This document shows positions 8,684-64,000 of a stretch of DNA of 64,000 nucleotides, piece by piece. A model generated the notes under the pieces. It did no database searches and had not been told where the DNA came from. It saw only the letters and a list, made by a program, of their open reading frames with translations. Position 1 is the first letter of the stretch. Each line of letters starts with the position of its first letter. Origin of the DNA: an uncultured Actinomycetes bacterium (GTDB lineage Bacteria > Actinomycetota > UBA4738 > HRBIN12); the NCBI GenBank assembly GCA_963719165.1, contig CAVRAV010000001.1:1433478-1497477 (forward strand), in the 5' to 3' direction. Both the position numbers and the translations under genes were made by a program.

Positions 8684-10094
8684 CTAACCTCGCTCGGTCC
8701 GGGCGCGGTGCTCCGCGTCCTTGCGCTTGCGATACCCCTCGATCACCCGCTGCTCCCCGCGCTCGACCGCCAGGGCCCCCGGCGGCACGTCCTTCGAGAT
8801 CACGGACCCCGCCGCCGTGACGGCCTCGCGGCCCACGCGCACCGGCGCCACCAGGATGGTATCCGAACCCGTGCGGGCTCCGTCCTCGACGACCGTGCGG
8901 TGCTTGGCATAGCCGTCGTAGTTCGCGGTGATGTTTCCGGCCCCGATGTTCACACCGTCCCCGATGTCGGCGTCGCCCACGTACGACAGGTGCGGCACCT
9001 TCGATCCGCGGCCCACGCTCACGTTCTTCAGATCCACGAACGCCCCCACCTTGGCCTCGTCCGCTAAGACGACCCCGGGGCGCATGCGCACGAACGGTCC
9101 CACGGTCACGTCGCGACCCAGACGAGCACCCAGGAGCACGGCGAAGGTCACCTCGCTGCCGTCTCCCACCTCCGCGTCCACCAGCCGCGTCGACGGCCCG
9201 ATCGCGCAGCCGACCCCCACCCGCGTTCGGCCCTCGAGGAAGGACATCGGACGGATCACGGTGTCGGGTCCGATGGCCACGTCCACGTCGATGTACGTCG
9301 TGGCCGGGTCGATCAGCGTGACGCCGCCCGCGAGGTGCCCGGCGTTGATCCGACCGCGGACGACGCGCTCCACGGCGGCCAGCCCGGCGCGCGAGTTGAG
9401 CCCCATCGCGCCTCCCGTGTCCACCGGCACGACCGTGACCCTGAGGCCGTCGGCGAGCAGGAGCGGGATCACGCGATTCAGGTAGTACTCCCGCTGCCGG
9501 TTCTTGCGATCCAGCCGGGGAAGGGCACGGAAGAGCTCGGAGCGGCGAAACGCGAACAGCATGATCGAGACCTCGCGGATCGCCTGCACGTCCGGAGGCG
9601 CGTCCTCCTGCTCGACGATCTCGACCAGGCGGCGGCCCTCACGAACCACCCGGCCGTAGCCGCCCGGATCGTCCAACTCGGTGGCCGCGATGGTGGCGGC
9701 GACGCGCGAACGCCGATGCGAGGTGACGAGCGCCTTCACATCGTCCGCGGTCACCGGATCGAAGTCACCGCCCATCACGAGCACGTCGTCGACCCGGCCG
9801 ACCTTGGACCGGGCGACGCTGACGGCGTCGCCGGTGCCGAGCTGGCGGGGCTGCCGGACGAACACGGGGGCGGGCGAGAGCGTCCAGGAGCGCACCGCGG
9901 CCTCGACCTCGTCGGCGCCGTGGCCGACGACCACCACGACCTTCTTGGGTCGCGCCGCCATGCCGGCTTGCAACACGTGCCAGAGGGCGGGACGGCCGCA
10001 CACGGGTTGGAGGACCTTGGGTGTGGAGGACTTCAGGCGCTTGCCCCGGCCCGCGGCGAGTACCACGAGGGCCAGGGAGCGGGAGGACTTGGAC
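8684..10094 (-). CDS. glmU: bifunctional UDP-N-acetylglucosamine pyrophosphorylase / glucosamine-1-phosphate N-acetyltransferase GlmU
   Basis: LAAGRGKRLKS nucleotidyltransferase motif plus C-terminal left-handed beta-helix hexapeptide repeats. The longest ORF reaches 10267, but its first ~58 codons are low-complexity S/R/P. The GTG at 10094 (MLTEPTTSKSSRSLALVVLAAG) is the more plausible start. Confidence 0.88.
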
Positions 10095-10307: not shown

Positions 10308-10378
10308 TTCCGGGGGGAGGGGTCGAACCTCCATCCCAGGCTCCAAAGGCCCGTGTCTTGCCGTTAGACCACCCCGGA
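10308..10378 (-). tRNA. tRNA-Gln (anticodon UUG)
   Basis: Manual cloverleaf fold: acceptor TCCGGGG/CCCCGGA, D-stem GTCT/AGAC, anticodon stem CGGGC/GCCTG, loop CTTTGGA (U33 then TTG), T-arm GGAGG-TTCGACC-CCTCC. CCA is not encoded. Confidence 0.75.
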
Positions 10379-14085: not shown

Positions 14086-14907
14086 CTAGCGGAGCCCGGG
14101 GAACGCCTCGCGTGCGTTCGCGGCGGTGGCCGCGACGAGATCGTCCACGTCGACATCGCGTGCGCGGGCGATCGCCTCGGCGATGATCGTGATGTTCGCC
14201 GGCTCGTTGTCGCTGCCGCGGAGTTTCTGCGGGGCGAGGAACGGTGAGTCGGTCTCGGTGAGGATGCGGTCCAGGGGCAGGGCGGCGGCCGCCTGTCGGA
14301 AGTGCTCGTTCTTCGGGTACGTGATGTTGCCCGCGAAACTCACCCAGTAACCGCGCTCGGCGCACTCGCGCGCCAGCCCGACGTCGCCGCTGAAGCAGTG
14401 GATCACCACACGTTCGGCGGAGCCCTCTTCCAGCGCCCGCAGCGTCTGGGGCCACGCATCGCGGATATGTACCACCATGGGTTTCGCCGTCTCGTTCGAC
14501 AAGGCGATGTGGGTCTTCAGGCACCGAAGCTGATCCTCGACGGGCGAACGCATCCGGAAGAAGTCGAGACCGCACTCCCCCACCGCGATCACGCGCGGGT
14601 CGCCCAGCAGTTCTTCGATCCGCGCGGCGGCCGCCTGATCGAAGGTCGCGGCGTCGTGCGGATGCATGCCGGCCGTGGCGAACACTCCCTCCAGCCGCTC
14701 TGCCAGCCCGAGCGATCGAGCGCTCGTGGACGGGTCCACGCCCACGCAGATGATCCGGTCGACGCCCGCCTCGTTCGCGGCCTCGACCACATCTGCAGGT
14801 TCGTGCTCGAGGAGGAACAGGTGGCAGTGGGTGTCCACCGCCCCGCTCTGCACCGACACTTCAGGGTTCTGGTCGCTCACGATCGGCGAGCTTACCGCGG
14901 TCTCCAC
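14086..14907 (-). CDS. tatD: TatD family metal-dependent deoxyribonuclease
   Basis: AVDTHCHL...GECGLDF...DSPF TIM-barrel hydrolase motifs. Confidence 0.85.
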   Translation of the reverse strand: METAVSSPIVSDQNPEVSVQSGAVDTHCHLFLLEHEPADVVEAANEAGVDRIICVGVDPSTSARSLGLAERLEGVFATAGMHPHDAATFDQAAAARIEELLGDPRVIAVGECGLDFFRMRSPVEDQLRCLKTHIALSNETAKPMVVHIRDAWPQTLRALEEGSAERVVIHCFSGDVGLARECAERGYWVSFAGNITYPKNEHFRQAAAALPLDRILTETDSPFLAPQKLRGSDNEPANITIIAEAIARARDVDVDDLVAATAANAREAFPGLR

Positions 14908-14997
14908 ATGGGGTCGACCGGGGGAGCTTCACGTGAAACATGGATCTGGGAAGCCTCACCCCCGAGTGAAGGCGCGGTGGAAAACGCCGAACGCAGG

Positions 14998-16572
14998 CTA
15001 GTCCGCGTCCACGCGGGGAAACAGGGACGCTCCTTTGGTCGTGAGCGTCCCGGGACGCAGTCCGCCCCACGCCGTCGAGGCGGGCAGATGCTGTCCCTCG
15101 AGGGAGCCCGTCTGGCCGAGTTGCTCCCACAGGCGCGCCGCCGCGGAGGGCATGACCGGCTGGATCAAGATCGCGAGGCAGCGCAGCGTCTCCGCGGCGG
15201 CGTAGAGGATCCCCGCCAGCTCTCGGCCGCGACCCGGGTCATTCGCCACGGCCCAGGGAGCCCGCTCCACCAGGTACTGGTTCGCGCGGCCGACGATCTC
15301 CCACACGGCCGTGAGGGCCGGTTGGAGTTGCACGGCGAGCATCGCCTCGTCGTAGCGGGCGGTCACGTCCTCGATGATGGTGGGGAGGTCGGAGGCCTCC
15401 GCGCGATCGTCTCCGGGGTCGGGTACCTCGCCGTCGTAGTTCGACGAGAGCATGGCGAGCACCCGGGCGGCGAGGTTGCCGAGGCCGTTGGCGAGGTCGG
15501 CGTTGTGACGATCGACCATGGACTCCCAGCTGAAGTTCCCGTCCTCGCCGAAGCGCATCTCGCGCATGAAGTAGTAGCGGTAGGAGTCCACGCCGAAGCG
15601 CTCCAGCAGGTCGGCCGGGTGGATCCCCGTGAGGTTCGTCTTGGACATCTTCTTGCCACCGACCGTGAGGTAGCCGTGTGCCCAGACCTGCTTCGGCAGC
15701 GGAACGCCGGCGGCCATGAGCATGGCCGGCCAGTAGACCGCGTGGAACCGGATGATGTCTTTGCCGATCATGTGGATGTCCACGGGCCACATCCGGTCGA
15801 AGCGCTGGGGGTCCGAGGCGTAGCCCGCCGCCGTGATGTAGTTGGTGAGCGCGTCGAACCAGACGTAGGTCACGTGCGCGTCGTCCCACGGGAGTGGCAC
15901 GCCCCAACTCAGGGTGGTCCGGCTGATCGAGAAGTCCTGCAGACCGCCCTCGAGGAGGCTGAGGATCTCGTTGCGCCGGGTCCCGGGCTCGATCGCCCCG
16001 GGGTGCTCCGTGTAGTGGGCGAGGAGCCGGTCGCGGTACGCCGACAACCGGAAGAAGTAGTTCTCCTCCGTCACGTGTTCCACCGGACGCTCGTGGATCG
16101 GGCAGAGCCCGCCCTCCAGCAGGTCTCCCTCGGTGTAGTAGGCCTCGCACGATACGCAGTAGAGCCCCTCGTAGGAACCGAGGTAGATGTCGTCCCGCCC
16201 GTTGCCGTGGACGGCCTCCAGGAGCTTGGCGACCGCCGCGTAGTGACGCGGCTCGGTGGTGCGGATGTAGTCGTCGTAGCCGATATCGAGGCGCGCCCAG
16301 ACCTCCCGCCACTGCGCCTCCATCGCGTCCACCCACGCGCGAGGATCGGTCCCGGCGGCCTCGGCCGCCCGCTGGATCTTCAGGCCGTGTTCATCCGTAC
16401 CCGTGAGATGGAAGACGTTCTCCCCGCGCAGCCGGTGGTAGCGAGCGACGAGGTCCGTCGCCACGGCGTCATACGCGTGGCCGATGTGGGGCGCATCGTT
16501 GACGTAGTAGATCGGGGTGGTGATGTAGAAGACGTCGCGACCCATGACCGGCATCTTACCGACGCCAGGCAT
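14998..16572 (-). CDS. metG: methionine--tRNA ligase
   Basis: FYITTPIYYVNDAPHIGHAY (HIGH) and KMSKT motifs. Confidence 0.95.
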   Translation of the reverse strand: MPGVGKMPVMGRDVFYITTPIYYVNDAPHIGHAYDAVATDLVARYHRLRGENVFHLTGTDEHGLKIQRAAEAAGTDPRAWVDAMEAQWREVWARLDIGYDDYIRTTEPRHYAAVAKLLEAVHGNGRDDIYLGSYEGLYCVSCEAYYTEGDLLEGGLCPIHERPVEHVTEENYFFRLSAYRDRLLAHYTEHPGAIEPGTRRNEILSLLEGGLQDFSISRTTLSWGVPLPWDDAHVTYVWFDALTNYITAAGYASDPQRFDRMWPVDIHMIGKDIIRFHAVYWPAMLMAAGVPLPKQVWAHGYLTVGGKKMSKTNLTGIHPADLLERFGVDSYRYYFMREMRFGEDGNFSWESMVDRHNADLANGLGNLAARVLAMLSSNYDGEVPDPGDDRAEASDLPTIIEDVTARYDEAMLAVQLQPALTAVWEIVGRANQYLVERAPWAVANDPGRGRELAGILYAAAETLRCLAILIQPVMPSAAARLWEQLGQTGSLEGQHLPASTAWGGLRPGTLTTKGASLFPRVDAD

Positions 16573-16586
16573 GACCTCCGAGCGCC

Positions 16587-16607
16587 ACTAGTCTATATCA
16601 GACTAGT
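16587..16607. promoter_or_regulatory. perfect AT-containing palindrome ACTAGTCT-atatc-AGACTAGT, 15-35 bp upstream of the metG start; candidate operator
   Basis: 8-bp perfect inverted repeat with a 5-nt spacer, in the only AT-rich patch of the rsmI-metG intergenic region. Confidence 0.3.
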
Positions 16608-16635
16608 CACGAACCCTCGACCTCGGAAGCCAGGC

Positions 16636-17460
16636 TCAACCGATGAGCCGCGCGTACAGATCGTTCGCGGACCCGCCGCGCCGCTCGGCCACCGCGCGGG
16701 CCGCGTCGCGCTTGCGCATGCCGGCGGCGACGAGCGAACGCGCCTCGGCCAACGACCCCTCGAGGTCGACGCCGGCAGTCCCGGTATCGCCTTCCACCAC
16801 GAGGACCATCTCGCCCTTGAGTGTCGCGTCGTCGAGCCGGCCGAGCACCTCGGACACGCGGCCGCGCAGTACCTCCTCGTGGCGCTTGGTGAGCTCGCGC
16901 GCGAGTGCCACGCGGCGGTCTCCCATGGCGTCGAGGAGGGCGTCGAGGAGGGCGTGCACGCGTCGGGGCGACTCGAAGAACACCAACGTGCGATCGTCGT
17001 GGCATAGCTCCCCCAGGCGCCGGGCCCGCTCGCCGGGCTTCTTGGACACGAACCCCTCGAAGGCGAAGCGATCCGTGGGCAGGCCCGAGACGACGAGCGC
17101 CGCCAGCGCCGCCGAGGGACCCGGCACGACCCGGACCTCGATGTCGTGCTCCACCGCGGCTCGCACGATCCGATATCCGGGATCGGACACGCTCGGCATG
17201 CCGCCGTCGGTCACGAGCGCCACCTGTGCTCCCTCGCGCAGACGCTCCACCAACTCCACGGTTCGCTCGCGTTCGTTGCCTTCGAAATAGGAGACGAGCT
17301 GCGGCCGTGGCCGCAGGCCGATGGACTCCAGCAGGCGGCCGGTCCGCCGCGTGTCCTCGGCCGCGATCAGGTCCGCCGACGCGAGGGTCGCCCGGGCACG
17401 ATCGGTGAGGTCGCCGAGGTTCCCGATCGGGGTTCCGACCAGCCAGAGGATGCCCGCCAT
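16636..17460 (-). CDS. rsmI: 16S rRNA (cytidine1402-2'-O)-methyltransferase RsmI
   Basis: Starts MAGILWLVGTPIGNLGDLTDRA, a tetrapyrrole-methylase-fold RsmI. Confidence 0.9.
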   Translation of the reverse strand: MAGILWLVGTPIGNLGDLTDRARATLASADLIAAEDTRRTGRLLESIGLRPRPQLVSYFEGNERERTVELVERLREGAQVALVTDGGMPSVSDPGYRIVRAAVEHDIEVRVVPGPSAALAALVVSGLPTDRFAFEGFVSKKPGERARRLGELCHDDRTLVFFESPRRVHALLDALLDAMGDRRVALARELTKRHEEVLRGRVSEVLGRLDDATLKGEMVLVVEGDTGTAGVDLEGSLAEARSLVAAGMRKRDAARAVAERRGGSANDLYARLIG

Positions 17461-17542
17461 CCCCCGATGGTCCCAGGCGTCGCGTGCGTTCGGACGCGGC
17501 CGACGAGCCTTCGGCGCTGTCGCGCCCCGCTACCATCTGGCG

Positions 17543-19078
17543 GTGTCCCCGGTCCTGGCGCGCCTCAACCGCCCACTCGTCGCGATCCTCGCGGTCGCCG
17601 CTATCGCCGGTGGCATCCGCTTCTTCCATCTGACGCACCCGCCGGGTTTCGTGTTCGACGAGATCTACTACCCGAAGGCGGCCTGCATCTACGTCGGGTC
17701 CTCCAACGCCACGTGCCACGTCGCCTCGAGCGACGAGAAGTACTGGCGCACGAACCAATGGGACGTGGGCTCGTGGGTCCATCCGCCCTTGGGCAAGTGG
17801 ACGATCGCGATGGGGATCAAGGCGTTCGGGATGAACGAGTTCGGCTACCGATCCATGTCGGCGCTGGCGGGCACGCTCGTCGCCGTGATGGTGGCGCTCA
17901 TGGCGCAGCTGCTGTGGCGCCGACCCATCTGGACGTTCGTGGCCGGACTCCTGATGTCGATCGAGCACCTCAACGTCGTGATGTCGCGCACGGGCCTGCT
18001 CGACATCCACCTCGAGTTCTGGGTCGTCCTGGGGTTCCTGTGCGTGCTCTTGGATCGGCGGTGGATCGGGCGCGAGACGCCTCCACCGCGGGTCCCGCTC
18101 GCCGTCACGGACGTCGGCGGCGTCACGACGATGGTGATGCCGCGCTGGACGAAGGTGCCCTCTCCCCTGTGGCGGCCCTGGCGCTTCGCCGCCGGCGCGG
18201 CGTTCGGCGCGGCCTGCGCCGTGAAGTGGTCGGGGATCGCCGCCCTCGCCGGCGCCGTCATGCTCACCTACATCTGGGAGACCACGCGCCGGCACCGTGA
18301 CGACACATCGCTCCCGCGCGCCCTCGCGAAGGCGTTCGCGTTGGAGACCTTCGGGATGGTGCTGGCCTTCTTGGTGGTGCCCGTCGCCGTGTACCTGCTC
18401 ACGTGGCTCCCCTGGTTCCACCACTTCGGCTGGAGCCTCTCGGGCTTCTGGCAACACCACCTGGAGATGTGGCGCTACCACGCCGGGCTCAAAGCGACCG
18501 CCCTGGACAGCGCCACGCACACGTACACGCCGACCCATCCCTATTACTCGCGGCCGTGGACGTGGCTGCCCATGACCCGCCCGGTCAGCTTCTACGTGCA
18601 GAACGCCGGAAACGACGTCTCGCAGATCATCGCGATCGGAAGCCCCGTCATCTTCTGGGGCAGCATCCTCGCGCTGCCCTACGCGGCGTTCCGCTGGCGC
18701 CGCAGGCGCGACTGGCGTGCGGGCTACGTCCTGGTCCCGTTCCTGGCCCAGTACCTGTCGTGGTTCGCCGTGAGCCGGCCCCAGTTCTTCTTTTACGTCC
18801 TGCCGTGCACGCCGTTCATGGTGCTCGCGGTGGCGATGCTCGTGCGGGACCTGGCCGGGGCACGGATCGTCGTTCGCGACAAGGAAACGGGGGCGGTGGC
18901 GACGAACCCGGACACGGGGAAGCCGGCGATCTCCGTTCGCCGGCCCTACCGTTGGATCGCGTGGGCCATCGTGTTGGGCGCCGTGGGTCTGTTCGTGTGG
19001 TTCTGGCCGGTGCTCACGGCCGGCAGGCTCCCCAACACGCTGTGGCGCGCCCGCGTGTGGTTCCGCGGATGGATCTGA
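17543..19078 (+). CDS. protein O-mannosyltransferase (GT39/PMT family)
   Basis: FDEIYYPKAA motif (the DE loop motif of PMTs) and ~10 TM segments, divergent from rsmI. GTG at 17543 is the proposed start. The track ORF begins at 17321, overlapping rsmI. Confidence 0.8.
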   Translation: MSPVLARLNRPLVAILAVAAIAGGIRFFHLTHPPGFVFDEIYYPKAACIYVGSSNATCHVASSDEKYWRTNQWDVGSWVHPPLGKWTIAMGIKAFGMNEFGYRSMSALAGTLVAVMVALMAQLLWRRPIWTFVAGLLMSIEHLNVVMSRTGLLDIHLEFWVVLGFLCVLLDRRWIGRETPPPRVPLAVTDVGGVTTMVMPRWTKVPSPLWRPWRFAAGAAFGAACAVKWSGIAALAGAVMLTYIWETTRRHRDDTSLPRALAKAFALETFGMVLAFLVVPVAVYLLTWLPWFHHFGWSLSGFWQHHLEMWRYHAGLKATALDSATHTYTPTHPYYSRPWTWLPMTRPVSFYVQNAGNDVSQIIAIGSPVIFWGSILALPYAAFRWRRRRDWRAGYVLVPFLAQYLSWFAVSRPQFFFYVLPCTPFMVLAVAMLVRDLAGARIVVRDKETGAVATNPDTGKPAISVRRPYRWIAWAIVLGAVGLFVWFWPVLTAGRLPNTLWRARVWFRGWI

Positions 19079-22362: not shown

Positions 22363-22899
22363 CTAGCTCTTCGCCTTCCCGCTCAAGATGTCTTTGACCC
22401 TGTCGAAGAAGCCCCCCGTCGCGTCCTTGGCCTTGTCGGTCGCCGGACCAACCGCGTCCTTCGCTTTGAGCGCGGCGTCGCCCGTGGCGCCGAGCGCCTT
22501 GCTCGCGAGACCGCCCGCCGTGTCCACGGCCTTGCTCGTGATCGGGGCCGCCTTGTCCACCAGGCCGCTCGCCGTTCCCTTCGCCTTCTCAACCACGGGC
22601 GCGGCCTTGTCGGCCAAGGTTCCCGCCGCGTCCTTGGCCTTGTCGGCCGCGCTCTGTGCGCCGTCCCCCGTCTTGTCGGTCGCCGCTTGGGCGGCGTCGT
22701 TCGCCTTGTCGGCCGCGCCCTGGGCCGCATCCTTCGCCTTGTCCGCCGCGCCCTGGGTCGCATCGGCGGCCTTGTCGGCCGCGCCCTGGGCGGCGTCCTT
22801 CGCCTTGTCCGCCGCGCCCTGGGTCGCATCGGCGGCCTTGTCCGCCGCGCCCTGGGCGGCGTCCTTCGCCTTGTCGGCGGCGCTCTGTTCGTCGCTCAT
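22363..22899 (-). CDS. LEA-like 11-mer repeat protein (Ala/Lys/Asp amphipathic repeats)
   Basis: Repeats AADKAKDAAQG / AADKAADATQG. The ATG at 22899 (MSDEQSAADKAKD) is chosen over the track start at 22959. Confidence 0.65.
   Translation of the reverse strand: MSDEQSAADKAKDAAQGAADKAADATQGAADKAKDAAQGAADKAADATQGAADKAKDAAQGAADKANDAAQAATDKTGDGAQSAADKAKDAAGTLADKAAPVVEKAKGTASGLVDKAAPITSKAVDTAGGLASKALGATGDAALKAKDAVGPATDKAKDATGGFFDRVKDILSGKAKS
22684..22881 (-). repeat. three near-identical tandem 66-bp coding repeats (22-aa unit) inside the LEA-like gene
   Basis: Visible directly as a repeated GCCTTGTCCGCCGCGCCCTGGGTCGCATCGGCGGCCTTGTCGGCCGCGCCCTGGGCGGCGTCCTTC block. Confidence 0.7.
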
Positions 22900-23068
22900 C
22901 GTTGCTCCTTCACGAGTCGTGGGACCCCCCATCGTTCCGGGACCGGTGGATAACGGCAAACCTGCAGGTCAGGAGGCTAGTTCGAGGGCTCCGAGAGCGC
23001 GGGGATCGAGTGGTTCGCCGAGATGCGCGAAGTTGTCCGCTTATGATCGTTCTGCAACACTTCCGCGC

Positions 23069-24383
23069 ATGGCCAAGGTCACCATCATCGGCGCCGGCAG
23101 CGTCGAGTTCACCCGCAACATCGTGGCGGATCTCGCCTCCTACGAGGAACTGCACGGGACCCTGGAGATCGCGCTTCACGACATCGACGAGGAACGACTC
23201 GCCACGGCCGAACGAGCGGCACGACGTCTCGTCGAGCAGGTGGGCGCCGGGTACGACGTGGCGGCGTTCTTCGACCGTCGCGCCGCCTTCGACGGCGCCG
23301 ACTACCTGATCAACGAGATCCAGGTGGGCGGCTTCGCGGCGACCCTGACAGACTTCGAGGTGCCCAAGACCTACGGCGTGCGGCAGACGATCGCGGACAC
23401 CATCGGGATCGGCGGCATCATGCGCGGGCTCCGGACCATCCCGGTGATGGCGGCGATGGCCGACGACATGGCGGCGCTCTGCCCGCACGGCCTCCTGCTC
23501 AACTACACCAACCCCATGGCGATGGTCCCGTGGGGGATCTGGGCGGGATCGGCGTTCCCCGCCGAGCGCACGATCGGCGTCTGCCACAGCGTGCGCGACA
23601 CGCATCGGTTCCTGGCCGAGACGGTGGGCGTCGCCGAGGAGGATATCTCGTTCATCACCGCAGGCTTCAACCACCAGTGCTTCGTGTACCGGTTCGAAGA
23701 TCGCCACACGGGCGAGGATCTCTACCCCCGCCTGCGGGCGAAGATCGACGCGGACCGAAGAGGGGCTCGGCCGTCGCGTTCGCGTTGAGTTGTTCCGGCG
23801 GTTCGGCTTCTTCCCGACCGAATCCTCCGAGCACTCCGCGGAATACGTCCCATGGCTCCTGCACCACGACGACCAGGTGACGCACTTCCGCAGCGAGATC
23901 GACGAGTACCTGCGACGCAGCGAGGAGAACCTCCGCGAGTTCGACGAGCTTCGAGCCAAGCTCGATACGGGCGAGGAGCTTGAGATCGAGCTCAACAGCG
24001 AGCTTGCGTCCGAGATCGTGCGCGCCGTGGAGTCGGGAGTCGCGCGCGAGGTCTACGGGAACGTGCGCAACGCCGGCCTGATCGAAGGCCTCCCGGAGGA
24101 CGCGTGCGTCGAGGTCCCGTGCGTCGCCGGCAAGAACGGCGTTCTCCCCACCCGCGTGGGGCGTCTGCCGCTCCAGACGCTCGCACTCAACCGCACCTTC
24201 TTGAACGTGGTGGAGCTCACGGTGCACGCGGCGCTGGAACAGCGCCGCGACCTCGTCTACGCCGCCGCGCTCCTGGATCCGAACACGGCGGCGACCCTTG
24301 CCTCGGGCCAGATCGTGGCGATGTGCGACGACCTGATCGCGGCCCACGGCGACCTCATGCCCGAGGGCATCGCCAAGGGCTAG
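23069..24383 (+). pseudogene. glycoside hydrolase family 4 (NAD/Mn-dependent alpha-glucosidase/alpha-galactosidase-like) with an apparent -1/+2 frameshift near 23753-23760
   Basis: N-part MAKVTIIGAGSVEFTRNI...CHSV (23069-23788) and C-part FRRFGFFPTESSEHSAEYVPW... (TTG at 23790 to 24383) are both clearly GH4 but in different frames. Reading the C frame upstream gives ...EEGLGRRVRVELFRRFGFF, so the junction is at gacgcggaccgaagagggg. Confidence 0.6.
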
Positions 24384-55871: not shown

Positions 55872-56936
55872 TCAGCCCGCCTTGGCGAACGCGCGCAGGC
55901 TCGCCTTGAGTTGCGAGCCGCTCAGCGCGATCGCGCCGGAGTCGAAGTTCACCGTCACCGTCCCCGCCGACCATGCCTCGGGAGTCTTCGTCTTGATGCA
56001 ATGACGCCCGTGGTGGACCGACGAGGCCCCGTCGGTGAACCGCAACGTTCCTGAGGCGAGCGGCGCCATGTCGGCGGCCTTCACGAGGAATCCCGTGGGC
56101 GTCTTCCGCGCCGGGCGCCCGACGGCCGAGGCCGTCATGCTGTGATCCACGGTTGCCGGTGCGATCCGCTCCACCTGCTCGAACCCGACGGAACCCGCTC
56201 CGAGGGGAGCGAAGACGGTGGCAAGCTGCCCCGCGTCCTGCGCCCTGAACGTCGAGCCGCGGAAGCACCCATGGGGCCGCGGCGACTCGTTGGGGCATCG
56301 CTTGCCCGATAGGAAGAACCGTCCGGCCTGACCCTTCATCGACGTGGCGGCCAGGTCGGGCAGGGTCCCTTCGTTCGGGGTGAACGACAACGTGCCCGTG
56401 AGGGTGCCTCGGCGAACGATCGTCGATTGGAGGACTTCGTGCGTCTTGGGGCAGCGGTACGAGTGCGTGCGGGCGGGTTGGTTCCCGGCGAACGTGAGGT
56501 CGATCTGACCGAACGGGCCGAGGCCCGAGCCGGTGCGCAGGCGCGCCTTGTGCAGGCGGGCGCCCACCCGGAGCGCGCCGGCCGGGAGCTGGAAGAACCA
56601 GGTGTGGGCCTGATACCCGTTGGTCACCTGTTGGTAACCCGACACGATGACGATCGTCCCGCCGCGCACGTCGCCGGCGCCCACCTGCCACCGGTAGGGG
56701 GACCCCGGCATCTTGAACATGCCACCGACACCCACCTGTGTGGTGGGCCTGCCGCGCGAGGCTCGCGTGAGCATGCGCACGCGATCGAGCGGAAGGGCCC
56801 GAGCGTGCCGCGCCACCCGGTGGATGGCCGCGGTCCGAGGCGCTGCCAACGGAGGCGACGCGACCGCAGACGCGGAGCCGAGGACGACCACGAGCGTCGA
56901 GCAAATCACGACCAGTCGGTGCGCACGTAGCTCCAT
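55872..56936 (-). CDS. secreted hypothetical protein
   Basis: N-terminal signal peptide and Cys pairs. No family recognised. Its stop is 2 nt from the DUF2461 start. Confidence 0.5.
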   Translation of the reverse strand: MELRAHRLVVICSTLVVVLGSASAVASPPLAAPRTAAIHRVARHARALPLDRVRMLTRASRGRPTTQVGVGGMFKMPGSPYRWQVGAGDVRGGTIVIVSGYQQVTNGYQAHTWFFQLPAGALRVGARLHKARLRTGSGLGPFGQIDLTFAGNQPARTHSYRCPKTHEVLQSTIVRRGTLTGTLSFTPNEGTLPDLAATSMKGQAGRFFLSGKRCPNESPRPHGCFRGSTFRAQDAGQLATVFAPLGAGSVGFEQVERIAPATVDHSMTASAVGRPARKTPTGFLVKAADMAPLASGTLRFTDGASSVHHGRHCIKTKTPEAWSAGTVTVNFDSGAIALSGSQLKASLRAFAKAG

Positions 56937-57020
56937 GGGTGAGACGGTAGCTCGCCGGCCTCGCCCTCACAAGGGAGCCCTGGCCTCCGGCGCGCCCGGC
57001 CGACCTGGGAGCATGGCGAC

Positions 57021-58073
57021 GTGACCCGGCGTCCCCACGACCCCGCCATCCGCCTGCTTCGACAACGCCTCACGAGCCAGCTGCTGGCCGGCCCTCGAGC
57101 GCGCGACCCCCTCGACGTGGTCGAGCGGCTCCTAGCGGTGCAGGGACAAGACGCCCGCGGGGCGCGGCTCGCGATCCGGTCCCGCTCGCGGGGGCTGACC
57201 GCCGGCGACGTCGATCGCGCGCTCACCCAAGATCGGTCCATGCTCATCACCTGGCTGAACCGCGGCACCCTGCATCTGGTGCGCACCCAGGACTACCACT
57301 GGCTCCACGCGCTCACCACGCCCCAGCTCGCCACGGGGAACGCCCGCCGCTTGCGCCAAGAGGGAGTCTCCGAGCGCGACGCCGACCGAGCCGTCCGTGC
57401 GATCGTTCGAGGCCTCGAGGCCGACGGGCCGCTCACGCGCTCCGAACTCGGCGAGCGCGTGAGCGCCACCAACGTGCGGACCCAGGGCCAGGCGCTGATC
57501 CACATCCTCCTGCTCGCGAGCCTGCGCGGCCTGATCGTGCGCGGTCCCATGGTGGGCTCCCATCACGCGTACGTGCTCACCGCGGATTGGCTGAGGCCCG
57601 CACCCGCGGTCGATGGTGAGCGGGCGACCGCCGAGCTCGCCCGTCGGTTCCTGATCGGCCACGGACCCGCAGACGATCGCGACCTCGCTCGCTGGTCCGG
57701 ACTCACCCTGGGCCGGGCGCGAGCCGGCATGCGCGCGATCGCGACGGAGCTGAAGGAGCGCCCCGACGGTCTCGTGCAGCTCACGAAGCGACCGCGAACG
57801 GCCGCCTTGCCCGGACCCACGCTGCTGGGCTCGTTCGATCCGGTGCTGCTGGGGTGGACCTCGCGCGAACCCATCCTCGGGGCGGCCACGCACATCGTCA
57901 CCAGCAACGGGATGTTCCGCCCCTTCGCCATGATCGAGGGAATGGCCGCGGCGACATGGACCCTGCCCGGCGGCGAAGTGAAGCTCGACCCGCTTCGCGA
58001 CCTCACGCCGCGCGAGCGCGACGCGCTCGATCGCGACGGTCGCGACGTGAGGCGCTTCCTCCGGGCGACCTGA
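57021..58073 (+). CDS. winged-helix DNA glycosylase of the YcaQ/AlkZ (HTH_42) family
   Basis: Length ~350 aa, LAVQGQDARGA (a Q-x-Q-type catalytic motif as in AlkZ), multiple WH repeats, and a C-terminal KLDPLRDLTPRERDALDRD. GTG start. Confidence 0.65.
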   Translation: MTRRPHDPAIRLLRQRLTSQLLAGPRARDPLDVVERLLAVQGQDARGARLAIRSRSRGLTAGDVDRALTQDRSMLITWLNRGTLHLVRTQDYHWLHALTTPQLATGNARRLRQEGVSERDADRAVRAIVRGLEADGPLTRSELGERVSATNVRTQGQALIHILLLASLRGLIVRGPMVGSHHAYVLTADWLRPAPAVDGERATAELARRFLIGHGPADDRDLARWSGLTLGRARAGMRAIATELKERPDGLVQLTKRPRTAALPGPTLLGSFDPVLLGWTSREPILGAATHIVTSNGMFRPFAMIEGMAAATWTLPGGEVKLDPLRDLTPRERDALDRDGRDVRRFLRAT

Positions 58074-59868
58074 GCCCCTTCCCGCTCGAGAGCGCCGGGC
58101 TTCCGCCGACGCTGCGGTACAACAAGACGCCACCGATCCGCCGCGGATGCGCGCCGAGCGCGGCGTCGAGGAACGGGGCCCAGGTGCGAACGGATCCCGT
58201 CATCACCACGATCGCCCCCACGTGGTGCTGTCGGAGCCAGAGCCGGAACCGATCGGGCGCGGGCGGGAGCCGGCCCGTCTGCACGCCCTGCCACAGGCGG
58301 TCGGCCTCGAAGGCCTCGGGCTCCGGCCCCGTATGGCCCTGGGGCATCGAGAAGGCGAACCCGCTCTGCTCCTGCAGCACCATCTCCAGGCCGCGACTCC
58401 TGCGGTCGTGCACGATCAGGATCGTCTCGTTCGGCGTCAACACCCGGCGGTACAGCCCGGCCGAGAAGAACCGCGGCGCGTCGATGGGTCGGTGCAGGCC
58501 CGCCTCGTGCACGTTCGGGATCAGCAGGAGGACGCCGAGTCCCACCGAGCCCCAGCGCACCGTCGAGTCGAACGCGCTCTTCGTGGGCCGCGGCCTCGAC
58601 AACCATCGAGCCACGATCAGGGCGACCCCGAGCCACATGTACATCGTCAACCGGTCGGGCAGGACGTTCATCAGGATCGGCGCGCGGGCCGGAACCGACC
58701 ACGGCATTGGGATCGTCCGGTGCGGGCCCACGAACAACACCGCCCCCATCGACAGGACGGCAGCGAGGGCTACGAAGGCGAACAGCCAGCGGGTGACCCG
58801 CTCACGACGCCCCGCGATGAACGCGGCGGCAAGGACGAGGAGCAACACGGGGCCGAGGTAGGCGCCGTCCTCGCTCACGTTCGTGGGAAAGCGATCCGTC
58901 AGCCGCGCGAACGCGGCGCCGCCCACCAAGGTGCCGTGGCGCGGGATCAGGAAACTGAGCAGATCGCTCGATGACCCGTCGATCCCGCGGATCGGCCCAG
59001 AAGGCAGTCCCGCCGCCGCGTACCAGAGATAGGGCGCGAGCACCGCGGCGGCCGCACCGCAGGCCACGATCGTGGGCCCCGCGGCGGTCCGCAGGAGCGG
59101 CCGCGTCGACGGCATCGCCAGGTAGGCCGTCAGCGCCGCCATGCCCGCGAACATCGTCATGCTCGCGAAGACCTCCGTCGAGATGGAGAACTCCGCGACC
59201 AAGACGGCGGTGAGCAGCAGCACGTACGACCGCCTCGAGAGGCGGCCGTGGACGTATCGCAACACGAGGTAGGCGGCCAGCGGCACGGGAAAGACGAGGA
59301 ACAGGTTCATGTGCCCGCGCATCTCCGCGAATTGGTAGGTCGAGAAACCGAACACGACGCCGCCCATGACGGCGGGCCAGAAACGACGCGTGACCTCGCG
59401 ACACAGGAGGTACGCGGCCCACGTGGCGAGCGCGGGCGAAGCGACCGCGATCGCGTTGGACGTGGCCACGGCGCCGAACGTCGCCGTGAGCGGCCACGCG
59501 GCGAGCGAGGGGCCGGGCAGCCCGGTGACCCACGCCATGTTCACGCCGGTGGGCGCCCATACGAGCGTGGGGTGGAACGGATTCAGTCCCGCGGCGATGG
59601 CGTGGGGCCACCAGGCCAGATCCCAGACGTAGAGCTTCGCGTCCGCGCTCCCCTGCCCCACGAACGACGTCGAGAAGCGCCCGAGGATGGGCACGGCGTA
59701 CAACAGGAACGAGCCGACGACGGCGCCACCGAAGACGCACCACGCGCGTCCGACGGAGCCCAGCGCGACGAACCACCGGTGCCGGGGAACGGGTGGCGCG
59801 CCCACCATGCCGTCGTCCACCCGAAGCGCCGGTGCCGGACCTGCGAACTGGGGGAAGCCGGGCGGCAC
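58003..59868 (-). CDS. large polytopic membrane protein (GT-C-like / YfhO-like fold?)
   Basis: About 12 predicted TM segments. No specific family recognised. The 3' end overlaps the convergent glycosylase gene by 70 nt, and the last ~40 codons are R-rich. Confidence 0.5.
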   Translation of the reverse strand: MPPGFPQFAGPAPALRVDDGMVGAPPVPRHRWFVALGSVGRAWCVFGGAVVGSFLLYAVPILGRFSTSFVGQGSADAKLYVWDLAWWPHAIAAGLNPFHPTLVWAPTGVNMAWVTGLPGPSLAAWPLTATFGAVATSNAIAVASPALATWAAYLLCREVTRRFWPAVMGGVVFGFSTYQFAEMRGHMNLFLVFPVPLAAYLVLRYVHGRLSRRSYVLLLTAVLVAEFSISTEVFASMTMFAGMAALTAYLAMPSTRPLLRTAAGPTIVACGAAAAVLAPYLWYAAAGLPSGPIRGIDGSSSDLLSFLIPRHGTLVGGAAFARLTDRFPTNVSEDGAYLGPVLLLVLAAAFIAGRRERVTRWLFAFVALAAVLSMGAVLFVGPHRTIPMPWSVPARAPILMNVLPDRLTMYMWLGVALIVARWLSRPRPTKSAFDSTVRWGSVGLGVLLLIPNVHEAGLHRPIDAPRFFSAGLYRRVLTPNETILIVHDRRSRGLEMVLQEQSGFAFSMPQGHTGPEPEAFEADRLWQGVQTGRLPPAPDRFRLWLRQHHVGAIVVMTGSVRTWAPFLDAALGAHPRRIGGVLLYRSVGGSPALSSGKGLRSPGGSASRRDRRDRARRARAA

Positions 59869-61617: not shown

Positions 61618-62442
61618 TCAGCCCCCCATCGCCTCCTCCAGGGCTCGGCGCACGAGCACCCTGGAAAGCTCCCGGCGGTACTCCGCGCTCCCGAACGCGT
61701 CGGACGGAGGGGCGGCGCCCTCGTCCGCCCGCAGGGAGGCGGTGGCCGGGTCCGCGCCCCCGGCGAGCGCCTCCTCCACGCCGGCCGCCCGCAGCGGTAT
61801 CTCGCCCATGTTCGTGAGCGCCACGGTGGCGCCGCCGTTGCGCTGGATCGCGGCCACGCCCACCAGCGCCCAGTCCTGCGCCCGCCGGTGGAACTTCAGG
61901 TAGCTCCAGCCTGCGCTCGTCTTGGGGATCCGCACCTCGGTGAGCACTTCATTCGCCGCGAGGTCGGCCGTGAACAGTCCTTGGAAGAAGTCGCGTGCGT
62001 TCACCGTGCGCGAGCCGCCGCCCGCGCCCCGGATCGCGAGGTCGGCCCCGAGGGCCACCAGCACGGTGGGCAGGTCGGAGGCCGGGTCCGCGTGGGCCAC
62101 CGAACCGCCGATCGTTCCCATGTGACGGACCTGCGGGTCGCCGATCTGACCTGCCGTGTCGGCCACGATGGGGCAGGCGGTCTGGACGAGCTCGCTGTTC
62201 GCCACGTCGTGGTGGCGCGTCAACGCGCCGATCGCCACGACGTCGCCGTCCTCGCGGATGTACGACAGGTCGGAGAGCCGGCCGATGTCAACCAGCAGAT
62301 CGGGCCGCGCCAGGCGGAAGCGCATCAGCGGGAGGAGCGAATGCCCACCCGCGAGGATCTTGGCGTCCTCGCTGGTGCCCAGCAGCTCGATGGCGTGGTC
62401 GATGCTCTCCGCCCTGGCGTACTCGAACGGCGCGGGGATCAT
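61618..62442 (-). CDS. xanthine dehydrogenase/CO dehydrogenase family FAD-binding subunit (CoxM-like)
   Basis: FEYARAESIDHAIELL...AGGHSLLPLM...GTIGGSVAHADPASD (FAD-binding PCMH domain). Confidence 0.85.
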   Translation of the reverse strand: MIPAPFEYARAESIDHAIELLGTSEDAKILAGGHSLLPLMRFRLARPDLLVDIGRLSDLSYIREDGDVVAIGALTRHHDVANSELVQTACPIVADTAGQIGDPQVRHMGTIGGSVAHADPASDLPTVLVALGADLAIRGAGGGSRTVNARDFFQGLFTADLAANEVLTEVRIPKTSAGWSYLKFHRRAQDWALVGVAAIQRNGGATVALTNMGEIPLRAAGVEEALAGGADPATASLRADEGAAPPSDAFGSAEYRRELSRVLVRRALEEAMGG

Positions 62443-64000
62443 GCCGCACCTCCCTTCGCGTCCTGGATGGCTCGCCAGACGCGTTCGGGCGACGCAGGCT
62501 TGCCGATCTCCGTGACGCCGAGGTGGCCGATGGCATCGAGGACCGCGTTGACGACCGCGGGCGGGGCGGCGATCGTCCCGGCCTCACCGATGCCCTTGAC
62601 CCCCAGCGGATTGGTCGTGGACGGCGTCTCCTGGCTGGTGTCCGTGACGAGCCGCGGGATCTCGGTGGCCGAAGGCACGAGGTACTGCGTCATGGAGGAC
62701 GTGATGAGGTTGCCGCTCTCGTCGTAGATTGCCTCCTCATAGAGCGCCTCGGCGATGCCCTGGGCCACCCCCCCGTGCACCTGACCCTCCACGATCATCG
62801 GGTTGATGACCGTGCCGCAGTCGTCGACGGCCACGTACTTCACGATCTCGGTCTTGCCCGTCTCCGTGTCGACCTCCACGACGCAGACGTGCGCACCCGC
62901 CGGCCAGGTGAAGTTGGGGGGGTCGAACACGGCCGTTGCGTTCAGGTTGGGCTCGGTCCCCGCGGGGAGGTCGTGGGCGTGCCACGCGGTCAGGGCGATC
63001 TCCGGGATGGTCTTGGCCTTGTCGGGCGCGCCCTGCACCCGCCAGCTGTGCTCCGCCCACTCGAGGTCGTCCTCGCTGACCTCCAATTCGTGCGCGGCGA
63101 TCGTGCGTGCCTTCTCCTTGATCTTCTCCATCGCGAAGTACAGCGAGGCGCCCCCAACGCTCACCGAGCGCGAACCGTAGGTGTCCATGCCGAGCGGCGT
63201 GATCATGGTGTCGCCGTGCAGGACCTCGATGTCGTCGGGCGTCACGCCCAGGCCGTCGGCCACGATCTGCGACCAGCTGGTCTCGTGGCCCTGGCCGTGC
63301 GGCGAGGTCCCCGTCTTCACGATCACCTTCCCGGTAGGCAGGCATTCGATCGTGGCGCCGTCCCAGCCGCCGGCCGCGTAGCGCAGCGCACCCAGGATGT
63401 TCGACGGCGCGAGGCCGCACATCTCGATGTACGTGCACAGCCCGATCCCGAGCTGGACGGTGTCGTTCCGGTCGCGGCGGGCGGCCTGGTCCTTGCGCAG
63501 TTCCTCGTAGCCGCTGAGCTCGAGCGCCTTGTCCAGCAACGGCTCGTAGTTGCCCGAGTCCACGTTGAGCCCGCACACGGACGTGGTGGACTCATCGAAC
63601 GGCGGGTGCAGGTTCATGCGGCGCACGTCGGCGGGGTCCTTGCCCACCCGCCGCGCGAACGCGTCGACGATCCGCTCGAGCACGTAGGTGGCTTCGGGAC
63701 GGCCCGCGCCCCGGTAGGCGTCCGTGGGCGTGCAGTTCGTGAGGATCCCCCGGAACTCGAAGTGGTAGGTCTCGGGGGCGTACGGGCCCATGTAGACCCA
63801 GCCGCCGAGCTCGGGGATGCCGGGCGTGAGCAGCTGGTAGTAGGCGCCCATGTCGGCGATCTCCACGAACTTCACACCGAGGATCTTTCCGTCCTCGGTG
63901 CCCGCGATGGTGCATTCGTGCGTGACGCCGCGGCCGTGCGTGGTGGCGACGTAGTTCTCGCTGCGCTCCTCGATCCACTTCACGGGCATGCCGAGTTCCT
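62439..64000 (-). CDS. xanthine dehydrogenase/CO dehydrogenase family molybdopterin-binding large subunit (CoxL-like), N-terminus beyond the window
   Basis: C-terminal MoCo-binding domains of the aldehyde oxidase/xanthine dehydrogenase family. The frame is open to the window edge. The ATGA overlap with coxM is conserved. Confidence 0.85.
   Translation of the reverse strand, partial: ELGMPVKWIEERSENYVATTHGRGVTHECTIAGTEDGKILGVKFVEIADMGAYYQLLTPGIPELGGWVYMGPYAPETYHFEFRGILTNCTPTDAYRGAGRPEATYVLERIVDAFARRVGKDPADVRRMNLHPPFDESTTSVCGLNVDSGNYEPLLDKALELSGYEELRKDQAARRDRNDTVQLGIGLCTYIEMCGLAPSNILGALRYAAGGWDGATIECLPTGKVIVKTGTSPHGQGHETSWSQIVADGLGVTPDDIEVLHGDTMITPLGMDTYGSRSVSVGGASLYFAMEKIKEKARTIAAHELEVSEDDLEWAEHSWRVQGAPDKAKTIPEIALTAWHAHDLPAGTEPNLNATAVFDPPNFTWPAGAHVCVVEVDTETGKTEIVKYVAVDDCGTVINPMIVEGQVHGGVAQGIAEALYEEAIYDESGNLITSSMTQYLVPSATEIPRLVTDTSQETPSTTNPLGVKGIGEAGTIAAPPAVVNAVLDAIGHLGVTEIGKPASPERVWRAIQDAKGGAA

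What the first reader, a model, noticed from the sequence alone, without database searches (positions are those of the whole stretch)
57021..58073. AlkZ/YcaQ-family winged-helix DNA glycosylase with a Q-G-Q motif
The 350-aa product has the HTH_42 architecture. A VQGQD sequence lies at the position of the catalytic Q-phi-Q (AlkZ-type) motif, rather than the Q-phi-D of YcaQ. AlkZ-type enzymes unhook interstrand crosslinks and are often self-resistance genes beside genotoxin clusters. No such cluster is visible in this window, so it may be a general crosslink-repair paralog.
Basis: partly seen in the sequence, partly recalled or inferred. Interest (0 to 1): 0.5.

Follow-up and report, generated by a model that had tools for sequence, protein, structure and literature searches.

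The report
AlkZ-like DNA glycosylase outside gene clusters
This is an intact gene for an AlkZ-type DNA-repair glycosylase with a Gln-Gly-Gln active-site motif, sitting among ordinary chromosomal genes of an uncultured soil actinobacterium; it is a correct but ordinary annotation of a known enzyme family.

Summary
ORF 57021-58073 (+) encodes a 350-aa protein. It matches Pfam PF06224 (AlkZ-like, formerly HTH_42) end to end (E=1.7e-51). A confident AlphaFold model (pLDDT 92.7) matches AlkZ best (5UUJ, TM 0.76), then AlkX/YcaQ (9ZD6, TM 0.72). Q41-G42-Q43 aligns on AlkZ's catalytic Q-A-Q and on YcaQ's Q45-I-D47, so the motif is AlkZ-type (QxQ), not YcaQ-type (QxD).

A tree places the protein on the AlkZ-like side, in a large clade whose motif is Q-[A/G/S]-Q-D. 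That clade is separate from the AlkZ-proper clade (QAQV). Q41, Q43 and D44 are invariant in 50 relatives, and dN/dS against the closest ortholog is 0.18.

The window holds only housekeeping and transport genes, with no biosynthetic cluster. None of 10 relatives' loci (4-10 kb flanks) has one either. Two close AlkZ relatives, used as a positive control, both sit beside an azinomycin-like PKS cluster.

The gene is most likely a chromosomal monofunctional glycosylase for N7-alkylguanine adducts or crosslinks, not linked to toxin production. Substrate and activity are untested. Verdict: new member of a known kind, low to moderate interest.

The parts
57021..58073 (+). Coding sequence of the 350-aa AlkZ-like (HTH_42/PF06224) DNA glycosylase homolog. 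The model's secondary structure indicates three winged-helix units (about residues 8-88, 118-186 and 199-254), a C-terminal beta subdomain (about 267-324) and a final helix (330-348).
   Evidence: ORF; GC3 0.86; Pfam E=1.7e-51; AF2 pLDDT 92.7, pTM 0.90; Foldseek 5uuj E=3e-18 TM 0.76 and 9zd6 E=5e-11 TM 0.72; dN/dS 0.18 against the L006 ortholog.
57007..57011 (+). Shine-Dalgarno-like GGGAG, 9 nt before the GTG start, within the 84-bp divergent intergenic region (56937-57020).
   Evidence: Read directly from the sequence. The N-terminal residues are also conserved as protein in the 88% relative L006, where tblastn starts at 9944, upstream of the annotated start.
57138..57152 (+). V40-Q41-G42-Q43-D44. 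This is the catalytic-motif position (AlkZ Q37-A-Q39, YcaQ Q45-I-D47, TfuAlkX Q56-I-D58). In the model the QGQ lies in a loop and D44 lies at the N-cap of helix 45-53.
   Evidence: Alignments. Q41, Q43, D44, R46, G47 and R49 are invariant in 50 relatives. The motif is QGQD in 103 and QAQD in 12 of the 120 closest clusters. Block 41-51 is the third most conserved in the protein. DSSP.
57258..57275 (+). N80-R-G-T-L-H85, the WH1 beta-hairpin 'wing'. In AlkX the equivalent hairpin buttresses the catalytic motif. The sequence is AlkZ-type (AlkZ MRGTLH), whereas YcaQ-like proteins have AHEA(S/C) here.
   Evidence: Alignment. Residues 76-86 form the most conserved block of the protein. R81, T83, L84, H85 and L86 are invariant. 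The role of the hairpin in AlkX is from PMC13303869.
57486..57503 (+). G156-Q-A-L-I-H161 at the start of the WH2 helix. This region is equivalent to AlkZ helix alpha-I and the AlkX W171-W175 region, a proposed lesion-sensing region. It is 6 residues shorter than in AlkZ, and Q157 and H161 are invariant in the clade.
   Evidence: Alignment; invariants; literature on alpha-I.
57897..57926 (+). V293-T-S-N-G-M-F-R-P-F302, a loop of the C-terminal beta subdomain at the position of the AlkZ beta11/12 hairpin and the AlkX DNA-binding loop that enters the minor groove.
   Evidence: Alignment. G297, F299 and P301 are invariant; T294, N296 and R300 are at least 90% conserved. Model confidence dips here (blocks 271-280 at 71 and 291-300 at 83), as expected for a loop that is disordered without DNA.
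58003..58073 (.). A 71-bp convergent overlap between the 3' end of this gene and the 3' end of the DUF6311 membrane-protein gene (58003-59868, minus strand).
   Evidence: ORF coordinates. The same gene calls appear on the independent contig L001. There is no overlap in the 88% relative L006.

Best explanation
The gene encodes a functional member of the AlkZ-like (AZL) branch of the HTH_42 DNA glycosylase superfamily.

Shown here: the fold (three winged helices plus a beta subdomain forming the AlkZ/AlkX scaffold); the QxQ motif at the catalytic position; AlkZ-type active-site support elements; purifying selection; and the absence of any biosynthetic cluster nearby, both in this window and in relatives.

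Inferred from the characterised enzymes AlkZ, HedH4, LldU5, YcaQ and AlkX: the protein binds duplex DNA in its concave basic cleft without flipping the base. The C-terminal loop (residues 293-302) inserts into the minor groove. Q41 and Q43 position the water or stabilise the oxocarbenium-like transition state, so that the N-glycosidic bond of a cationic N7-alkylguanine lesion (a bulky monoadduct or one arm of an interstrand crosslink) is hydrolysed. The resulting abasic site is then handed to base excision repair.

The gene lies in core chromosomal DNA. Its clade (motif Q-[A/G/S]-Q-D) was never seen next to biosynthetic genes. It therefore most likely protects the genome against environmental or endogenous alkylating genotoxins rather than against a toxin the cell itself makes.
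For: Family and fold: Pfam PF06224 E=1.7e-51 over the full profile. phmmer against the PDB finds AlkZ as the only family member (E=1.4e-13; the other three matches at E<=1 are weak and unrelated). The AF2 model has pLDDT 92.7. Foldseek ranks AlkZ 5uuj (TM 0.76), AlkX/YcaQ-DNA 9zd6 (TM 0.72) and Lhr-CTD as the top hits.

Motif: QGQ aligns on AlkZ QAQ and YcaQ QID. Q41, Q43 and D44 are invariant. The motif block and the WH1 wing are among the three most conserved blocks.

Subfamily: an NJ tree rooted on YcaQ/AlkX puts the query on the QxQ side, in a Q-[AGS]-Q-[DE] clade beside the AlkZ-proper clade. Identity is 26% to AlkZ and 20% to YcaQ and AlkX. The query has the AlkZ-type RGTLH wing and lacks the 9-residue YQL insertion after the FDP motif.

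Functionality: dN/dS is 0.18-0.22 against the four closest orthologs compared and 0.33 against L003.

Context: the window carries mazG, mfd, pth, L25, prs, glmU, ispE, ksgA, tatD, metG, rsmI, PMT, sugar transport and kinase genes, a P-type ATPase, DUF2461, DUF6311 and xanthine-DH-like genes, with no PKS, NRPS or other biosynthetic enzymes. The 10 relatives' loci with 4-10 kb flanks (L003-L012) likewise have none. As a positive control, two 80-83% relatives of AlkZ both abut a type I PKS / P450 / thioesterase cluster.

Catalytic roles of the motif in AlkZ, HedH4, LldU5 and YcaQ come from PMC7367128, PMC9040887 and PMC8934636.
Against: No activity or substrate data exist for this protein or for any member of its clade. 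The window ends 5.9 kb downstream of the gene, and the rest of the 2.66 Mb contig was not available, so a distant cluster cannot be excluded. Small clusters such as RiPPs or terpenes could escape a Pfam-by-ORF survey, and several ORFs had no Pfam match. Published AZLs are described as highly lesion-specific, so 'general' repair is an extrapolation from location, as was argued for YQL and AZL2. The tree is a neighbour-joining tree without bootstrap support. It lacks HedH4, TxnU, LldU and AZL2 sequences, so the position relative to those subclades is unknown. Gly at the middle motif position departs from the published 'small aliphatic' definition.
Confidence: 0.7

Rival explanations
1. It is a self-resistance glycosylase for a genotoxic natural product made by the same organism, with the biosynthetic cluster lying outside this window.
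For: In Streptomyces, AZL genes lie on average 2.3 kb from a cluster and are enriched within them (PMC9040887). The motif is the AZL type. Only 5.9 kb downstream of the gene is visible in the window.
Against: There are no biosynthetic genes in the 57 kb upstream or 5.9 kb downstream. The syntenic 88% relative extends the downstream view to 10 kb and shows only xanthine-DH-like genes. None of 10 relatives' loci has a cluster, while 2 of 2 AlkZ-proper relatives do. In three genomes the gene sits near rsmI and metG, which is core chromosome. The same paper analysed 40 AZL genes outside clusters, so being non-clustered is not unusual.
Confidence: 0.12
2. It is a narrow-spectrum immunity enzyme against one particular exogenous genotoxin made by other soil microbes (resistance without production), rather than a broad alkylation or crosslink repair enzyme.
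For: Characterised AZLs (AlkZ, HedH4, TxnU4, LldU1) are highly specific for one adduct. Q157 and H161 on the putative lesion-sensing WH2 helix, and a strongly conserved minor-groove loop, are invariant in the clade, which suggests one conserved substrate. Gene neighbourhoods vary, unlike the fixed neighbourhood of YQL.
Against: The clade is very populous and widespread. The 120 listed closest 90%-clusters are all at least 61% identical, 7984 scored candidates have E<=1e-5, and hits carry names from Solirubrobacteraceae, Thermoleophilaceae and Acidimicrobiales. This is easier to reconcile with a common lesion type. Nothing identifies a candidate toxin.
Confidence: 0.2
3. It is a non-catalytic winged-helix DNA-binding protein, such as a regulator or nucleoid protein, that merely retains the AlkZ fold.
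For: The fold is built of winged-helix units, and several sources name homologs only as 'winged helix DNA-binding protein'. There is no NCBIfam hit.
Against: The catalytic Gln pair is invariant and sits in one of the most conserved blocks. The supporting WH1 wing and the DNA-binding loop are also conserved. Every HTH_42 protein tested so far, including an AZL2, is a glycosylase.
Confidence: 0.03

Closest known systems
AlkZ (Streptomyces sahachiroi, PDB 5UUJ), the azinomycin B crosslink glycosylase and founder of the AZL subfamily
   Same: It is the best sequence and structure match (phmmer E=1.4e-13, Foldseek TM 0.76). The Q-small-Q motif is at the same position. The RGTLH wing and the LLG-FD-LLG segment are shared, without the YQL insertion. 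Length and single-domain organisation are similar.
   Different: Identity is only 26%. The query falls in a different clade: AlkZ-proper proteins are uniformly QAQV, while the query clade is Q[AGS]QD. The WH2 alpha-I region is 6 residues shorter. AlkZ relatives sit beside an azinomycin-like PKS cluster, and this gene does not.
YcaQ (E. coli) and AlkX (A. baumannii; T. fusca, PDB 9ZD6), the YQL subfamily of general interstrand-crosslink and 7mG glycosylases
   Same: The superfamily and fold are the same (Foldseek TM 0.72). The location is chromosomal and not cluster-associated, so the likely physiological role as a general genome protector may be analogous.
   Different: YQL has a QxD motif, not QxQ. 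Identity is 20%. The query lacks the YQL 9-residue insertion and the YQL-type DNA-binding loop with its tip Tyr, and has RGTLH where YQL has HEA(S/C). YQL neighbourhoods are near-invariant in Streptomyces, whereas this clade's neighbourhoods vary.
AZL2 clade of Bradley et al. 2022, with motif H-phi-(S/T)-(D/E)
   Same: AZL2 is closer to AZL than to YQL, is never within 20 kb of a cluster, and has glycosylase activity on 7mG. It shares an acidic residue at the fourth motif position, corresponding to D44 here.
   Different: The first and third motif positions are Gln and Gln here, not His and Ser/Thr. No AZL2 sequence was available for direct comparison.
HedH4, TxnU2/TxnU4 and LldU1/LldU5, cluster-encoded AZLs specific for hedamycin and trioxacarcin/LL-D49194 adducts
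   Same: They carry a QxQ (HedH4 Q41/Q43, TxnU2, LldU5) or HxQ motif at the same site and are monofunctional, non-base-flipping glycosylases.
   Different: Those genes lie inside their biosynthetic clusters and act on one intercalated bulky adduct. The query is not clustered, and its relationship to them could not be tested because no sequences were held.
Lhr helicase C-terminal domain (PDB 7LHL), an AlkZ-like fold with uracil-DNA glycosylase activity
   Same: It is the third structural match (Foldseek E=4e-4).
   Different: TM is only 0.52. It is fused to a helicase and has different chemistry (the abstract of PMC10953399, as listed).

Membership tests
HTH_42 / AlkZ-like superfamily (Pfam PF06224) | Significant full-length match to the family profile | tested here: met
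   E=1.7e-51, 176 bits against a 25.9-bit cutoff, profile positions 1-329 of 329.
HTH_42 / AlkZ-like superfamily (Pfam PF06224) | Fold of three tandem winged-helix units plus a C-terminal beta subdomain, as in AlkZ and AlkX | tested here: met
   The AF2 model has pLDDT 92.7. Foldseek against the PDB gives 5uuj TM 0.76 and 9zd6 TM 0.72 as the top hits; beyond these only Lhr-CTD has E<1e-3.
HTH_42 / AlkZ-like superfamily (Pfam PF06224) | Monofunctional DNA glycosylase activity on N7-alkylguanine lesions or crosslinks | not testable with these tools
   This needs a biochemical assay. The only support is conservation of the catalytic residues.
AZL (AlkZ-like) subfamily | (Q/H)-phi-Q catalytic motif at the AlkZ Q37/Q39 position | tested here: met
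   Q41-G42-Q43 aligns on AlkZ Q-A-Q. The middle residue is Gly rather than an aliphatic residue; A, G and S interchange at this position in the clade.
AZL (AlkZ-like) subfamily | Groups phylogenetically with AlkZ rather than with YcaQ-like proteins | tested here: met
   In the NJ tree of 112 sequences rooted on YcaQ/AlkX, the query clade is sister to the AlkZ-proper clade. Identity is 26% to AlkZ and 20% to YQL. Caveat: there is no bootstrap support, and HedH4, TxnU, LldU and AZL2 sequences are absent.
AZL (AlkZ-like) subfamily | Location in or next to a biosynthetic gene cluster (an enrichment in the literature, not an absolute criterion) | tested here: not met
   0 of 11 contexts (the window plus L003-L012) have a cluster. 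The positive control with AlkZ relatives gave 2 of 2. Non-cluster AZLs are documented.
YQL (YcaQ/AlkX-like) subfamily | Q-phi-D catalytic motif | tested here: not met
   The third motif position is Q43, not Asp.
YQL (YcaQ/AlkX-like) subfamily | YQL-type DNA-binding loop with a conserved tip Tyr, and the HEA(S/C) WH1 wing | tested here: not met
   The query has RGTLH and a shorter loop, VTSNGMFRPF, and lacks the 9-residue insertion after the FDP motif. The feature definitions are from PMC13303869.
YQL (YcaQ/AlkX-like) subfamily | Near-invariant gene neighbourhood | tested here: not met
   Immediate synteny is kept only in the 88% relative L006. L007-L010 and L003 differ. L005, L011 and L012 share a different arrangement among themselves.
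AZL2 clade | H-phi-(S/T)-(D/E) motif | tested here: not met
   The motif is Q-G-Q-D. Only the acidic fourth position is shared.

The most novel reading that the evidence does not exclude
The Q-[A/G/S]-Q-D proteins may form a distinct subfamily of AlkZ-like glycosylases that is never cluster-associated and is widespread in uncultured soil Actinomycetota, with hits named from Solirubrobacteraceae, Thermoleophilaceae and Acidimicrobiales. Such a subfamily would serve as a housekeeping repair enzyme for alkylation or crosslink damage, functionally parallel to YcaQ/AlkX. Its invariant Asp at the fourth motif position (D44, also acidic in AZL2) might contribute to catalysis, giving a hybrid AZL/AZL2 active site.
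Probability: 0.3. Interest if true: 0.4.

Novelty: new member of a known kind. Interest (0 to 1): 0.2.

Why it matters
AlkZ-like glycosylases are used as 'resistance beacons' for mining genotoxin gene clusters. This case documents a populous AlkZ-type clade (motif Q-[A/G/S]-Q-D) that carries the AlkZ-type motif but was not next to any cluster in 11 sampled contexts. The QxQ motif alone is therefore a poor predictor of a nearby genotoxin pathway outside Streptomyces. The clade also offers a candidate for how soil actinobacteria outside the studied genera handle N7-guanine adducts or crosslinks. Beyond that, the gene is a routine annotation.

Tried and rejected
- NCBIfam gave no hit at E<=0.01.
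- phmmer against the PDB found AlkZ but not AlkX/YcaQ. The relationship to YQL had to be shown by fold search and alignment instead.
The MetG search resolved the host only to 'Actinomycetota bacterium'.
- The supplements of PMC9040887 and PMC8934636 held no motif-level sequences for HedH4, TxnU, LldU or AZL2, so those could not be placed in the tree.
- The promoter and terminator scan around the gene found nothing. Reading the 84-bp upstream region by eye showed no GAAC-N4-GTTC LexA-type box, though no formal motif search for actinobacterial damage-response promoters was run.
- Rfam found only a tRNA in the window.
- I considered using high clade conservation as evidence for a housekeeping role and rejected it. 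The 68% mean identity is partly a selection effect of taking top hits: the AlkZ-proper top hits are equally conserved (67%), and the 50%-cluster representatives average 39%.
- I considered D44 as a catalytic residue. It cannot be tested without coordinates, and its position at a helix N-cap gives a purely structural alternative.

Full report
**Observation.** The window has about 70% G+C throughout. ORF 57021-58073 (+) starts with GTG and encodes 350 aa. Its codon-position G+C is typical of a real gene in such a genome, with GC3 0.86. A GGGAG Shine-Dalgarno lies 9 nt upstream. The same protein is called on an independent Logan contig (L001) and on a 2.66 Mb NCBI/ENA contig. Pfam assigns it to PF06224, 'DNA glycosylase AlkZ-like' (the former HTH_42), over the whole profile (1-329 of 329, E=1.7e-51). 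NCBIfam has no match.

**Motif.** V40-Q41-G42-Q43-D44 corresponds to nt 57138-57152. phmmer against the PDB finds AlkZ (5uuj, E=1.4e-13) as the only family member and aligns query 'vqgq' on AlkZ 'vqaq'. MAFFT alignments that include AlkZ, E. coli YcaQ (taken from NC_000913) and T. fusca AlkX (taken from the 9zd6 alignment) put Q41-G-Q43 on AlkZ Q-A-Q, YcaQ Q45-I-D47 and AlkX Q56-I-D58. My AlkX numbering reproduces the published Q56, E101/A102, W171-175 and F319, so the registers are right. The motif is therefore the AlkZ type (QxQ) and not the YcaQ type (QxD), as defined in PMC7367128 and PMC9040887.

**Structure.** An AlphaFold2 model built from a 50-sequence alignment is confident (pLDDT 92.7, pTM 0.90). 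Foldseek against the PDB returns AlkZ 5uuj (E=3e-18, TM 0.76, 24% identity), then the DNA-bound AlkX/YcaQ structure 9zd6 (E=5e-11, TM 0.72), then the Lhr C-terminal domain. Every other hit has E>1e-3 and is an unrelated winged-helix protein. In the model the QGQ lies in a loop between a short strand and helix 45-53, and D44 lies at the helix N-cap.

**Subfamily placement.** The literature defines three groups: YQL with QxD, AZL with (Q/H)xQ, and AZL2 with Hx(S/T)(D/E). I built a neighbour-joining tree of 112 sequences, rooted on YcaQ/AlkX. It contained the query clade, 77 full-length 50%-cluster representatives from an exhaustive HMMER search, 16 AlkZ-clade proteins, AlkZ, YcaQ and AlkX. The QxQ side of the tree splits into an AlkZ-proper clade, which is uniformly QAQV, and a large clade with Q-[A/G/S]-Q-[D/E]. 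The QGQD group containing the query is nested inside that larger clade. The query is 26% identical to AlkZ and 20% to YcaQ and AlkX.

The alignment shows further AlkZ-type characters. The WH1 wing is TWLNRGTLHL (AlkZ TWAMRGTLHL; YQL has YWAHEA). The query also lacks the 9-residue YQL insertion after the FDP motif. The WH2 helix region, which corresponds to AlkZ alpha-I and has been proposed to sense the lesion, is 6 residues shorter than in AlkZ and carries the clade-invariant Q157 and H161. The loop 293-302 (VTSNGMFRPF) lies at the position of the AlkZ beta11/12 hairpin and the AlkX DNA-binding loop. It is strongly conserved, and model confidence dips there.

**Conservation and selection.** Of the 120 closest 90%-identity clusters, 103 have QGQD and 12 have QAQD. 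Among the full-length top-150 50%-cluster representatives, QAQD dominates (59), with QGQD in 8 and a few S/T variants. In the 50-sequence alignment Q41, Q43, D44, R46, G47 and R49 are invariant. Residues 76-86 (the WH1 wing) and 41-51 (the motif) are among the three most conserved blocks. dN/dS is 0.18 against the 88% ortholog, about 0.2 against three more distant ones and 0.33 against L003. The family is large: 6751 50%-clusters at E<=1e-3. The 68% mean identity in the close clade is partly a selection effect, because the AlkZ-proper top hits are equally tight and the wider clade averages 39%. I therefore do not use it as evidence for a housekeeping role.

**Context.** About 57 ORFs of the window were scanned against Pfam.
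- Core genes: mazG, PPIase, mfd, pth, L25, prs, glmU, ispE, ksgA, tatD, metG, rsmI, PMT.
- Also present: an Rce1-like protease, a DAO oxidoreductase, GH4, MFS, DeoR, SIS, sugar ABC transport, two pfkB kinases, an aminotransferase, tryptophan dioxygenase, NAGPA, RDD, VWA/CoxE, MscS, an alpha/beta hydrolase, a P-type ATPase, STAS, DUF1801 and DUF2461.
- Around the target: a hypothetical secreted protein, the AlkZ-like gene, a DUF6311 membrane protein, a TAP-like peptidase and xanthine/CO-dehydrogenase-like subunits.

The largest ORFs are Mfd (1111 aa) and the ATPase (919 aa). No PKS, NRPS, terpene or other biosynthetic enzymes were found, and no second HTH_42 gene.

The 88% relative (L006) keeps the immediate neighbours and extends the downstream view to 10 kb, which holds more xanthine-DH-like genes. 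Relatives at 61-73% identity (L003-L005, L007-L012) sit in other contexts, all of primary metabolism or transport. L003 lies between leuB/ilvE/leuA/DegT and argH. L005, L011 and L012 share R2-like / AMP-binding | AZL | class II aaRS, LytR, ROK, rsmI, metG.

As a positive control for this ±10 kb test, two proteins 83% and 80% identical to AlkZ both sit at the edge of an azinomycin-like cluster with a 1791-aa type I PKS, a P450, a thioesterase, an ATP-grasp enzyme and a 2OG oxygenase, with a DinB_2 gene next door. The score is therefore 0 of 11 for the query's clade against 2 of 2 for AlkZ-proper.

**Host.** MetG from the window is 95% identical to that of GCA_038249195.1, the same assembly that carries the 88% AlkZ-like ortholog. 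The next MetG hits, at 73-78%, are named only 'Actinomycetota bacterium'. Named AlkZ-like relatives at 61-65% come from Solirubrobacteraceae, Thermoleophilaceae, Solirubrobacterales and Acidimicrobiales MAGs. The host is an uncultured soil-type actinobacterium, not a known genotoxin producer.

**Mechanism.** This part is inferred. By homology with AlkZ, HedH4, LldU5, YcaQ and AlkX, the protein should clamp duplex DNA in its concave basic cleft without base flipping and insert loop 293-302 into the minor groove. Q41 and Q43 would then promote hydrolysis of the N-glycosidic bond of a cationic N7-alkylguanine adduct or crosslink arm, leaving an abasic site for base excision repair. D44 may only cap the following helix, or it may add a carboxylate as in AZL2. 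This cannot be decided without coordinates or mutagenesis.

**Verdict.** The gene is a new member of a known family, on its AlkZ-like branch, in a populous Q-[A/G/S]-Q-D clade that in this sample is not cluster-associated. Non-cluster AZLs are already documented in Streptomyces. The result is therefore ordinary for a specialist, with a modest point of interest for resistance-guided genome mining.

Noticed in passing
window 22388-24383 (+): A family-4 glycoside hydrolase gene looks frameshifted. ORF 22388-23788 carries the GH4 N-domain (aa 230-414) and the first 30 positions of the GH4 C-domain. The next ORF, 23790-24383, is in a different frame and carries C-domain positions 49-211. This could be a pseudogene or a sequencing error.
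   Followed up: no
window 58003-58073: The AlkZ-like gene and the convergent DUF6311 membrane-protein gene overlap by 71 bp at their 3' ends, and the same calls appear on the independent contig L001. In the 88% relative L006 there is no overlap, and the DUF6311 gene is called in two pieces (183 + 396 aa). Pfam did not match the window's 621-aa product at E<=1e-3, although the precomputed annotation of the 601-aa call says DUF6311.
   Followed up: partly
L005, L011 and L012 compared with window 14086-19078: Three distant relatives (61-63% identity) place the AlkZ-like gene 5-7 kb from rsmI, and in L011 and L012 also close to metG. The same core genes lie about 40 kb away in the window. Between these genomes the AlkZ-like protein (61-63%) is more similar than the linked RsmI (49-51%) and MetG (42-43%). 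This could mean unusually strong constraint, different MetG types, or lateral transfer.
   Followed up: partly
L013 11100-11627 and L014 11154-11681: Close AlkZ relatives at the edge of azinomycin-like clusters are followed directly by a convergent DinB_2-family gene in both genomes. This fits the literature note that DinB hydrolases accompany cluster-borne AZLs. No DinB gene accompanies the query.
   Followed up: no
window 55872-56936 (-): A 354-aa protein with no Pfam match is divergently transcribed from the AlkZ-like gene across an 84-bp spacer. It is conserved next to the gene only in the closest relatives (L001 100%, L006 81%).
   Followed up: partly
window 10308-10378 (-): A single tRNA gene is the only Rfam match in the window at gathering thresholds.
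   Followed up: no
window 61618-63998 (-) and L006 13098-20993: Xanthine/CO-dehydrogenase-like subunit genes (FAD-binding and molybdopterin-binding) lie downstream. In the syntenic relative L006 there are two sets of these subunits plus XdhC.
   Followed up: no
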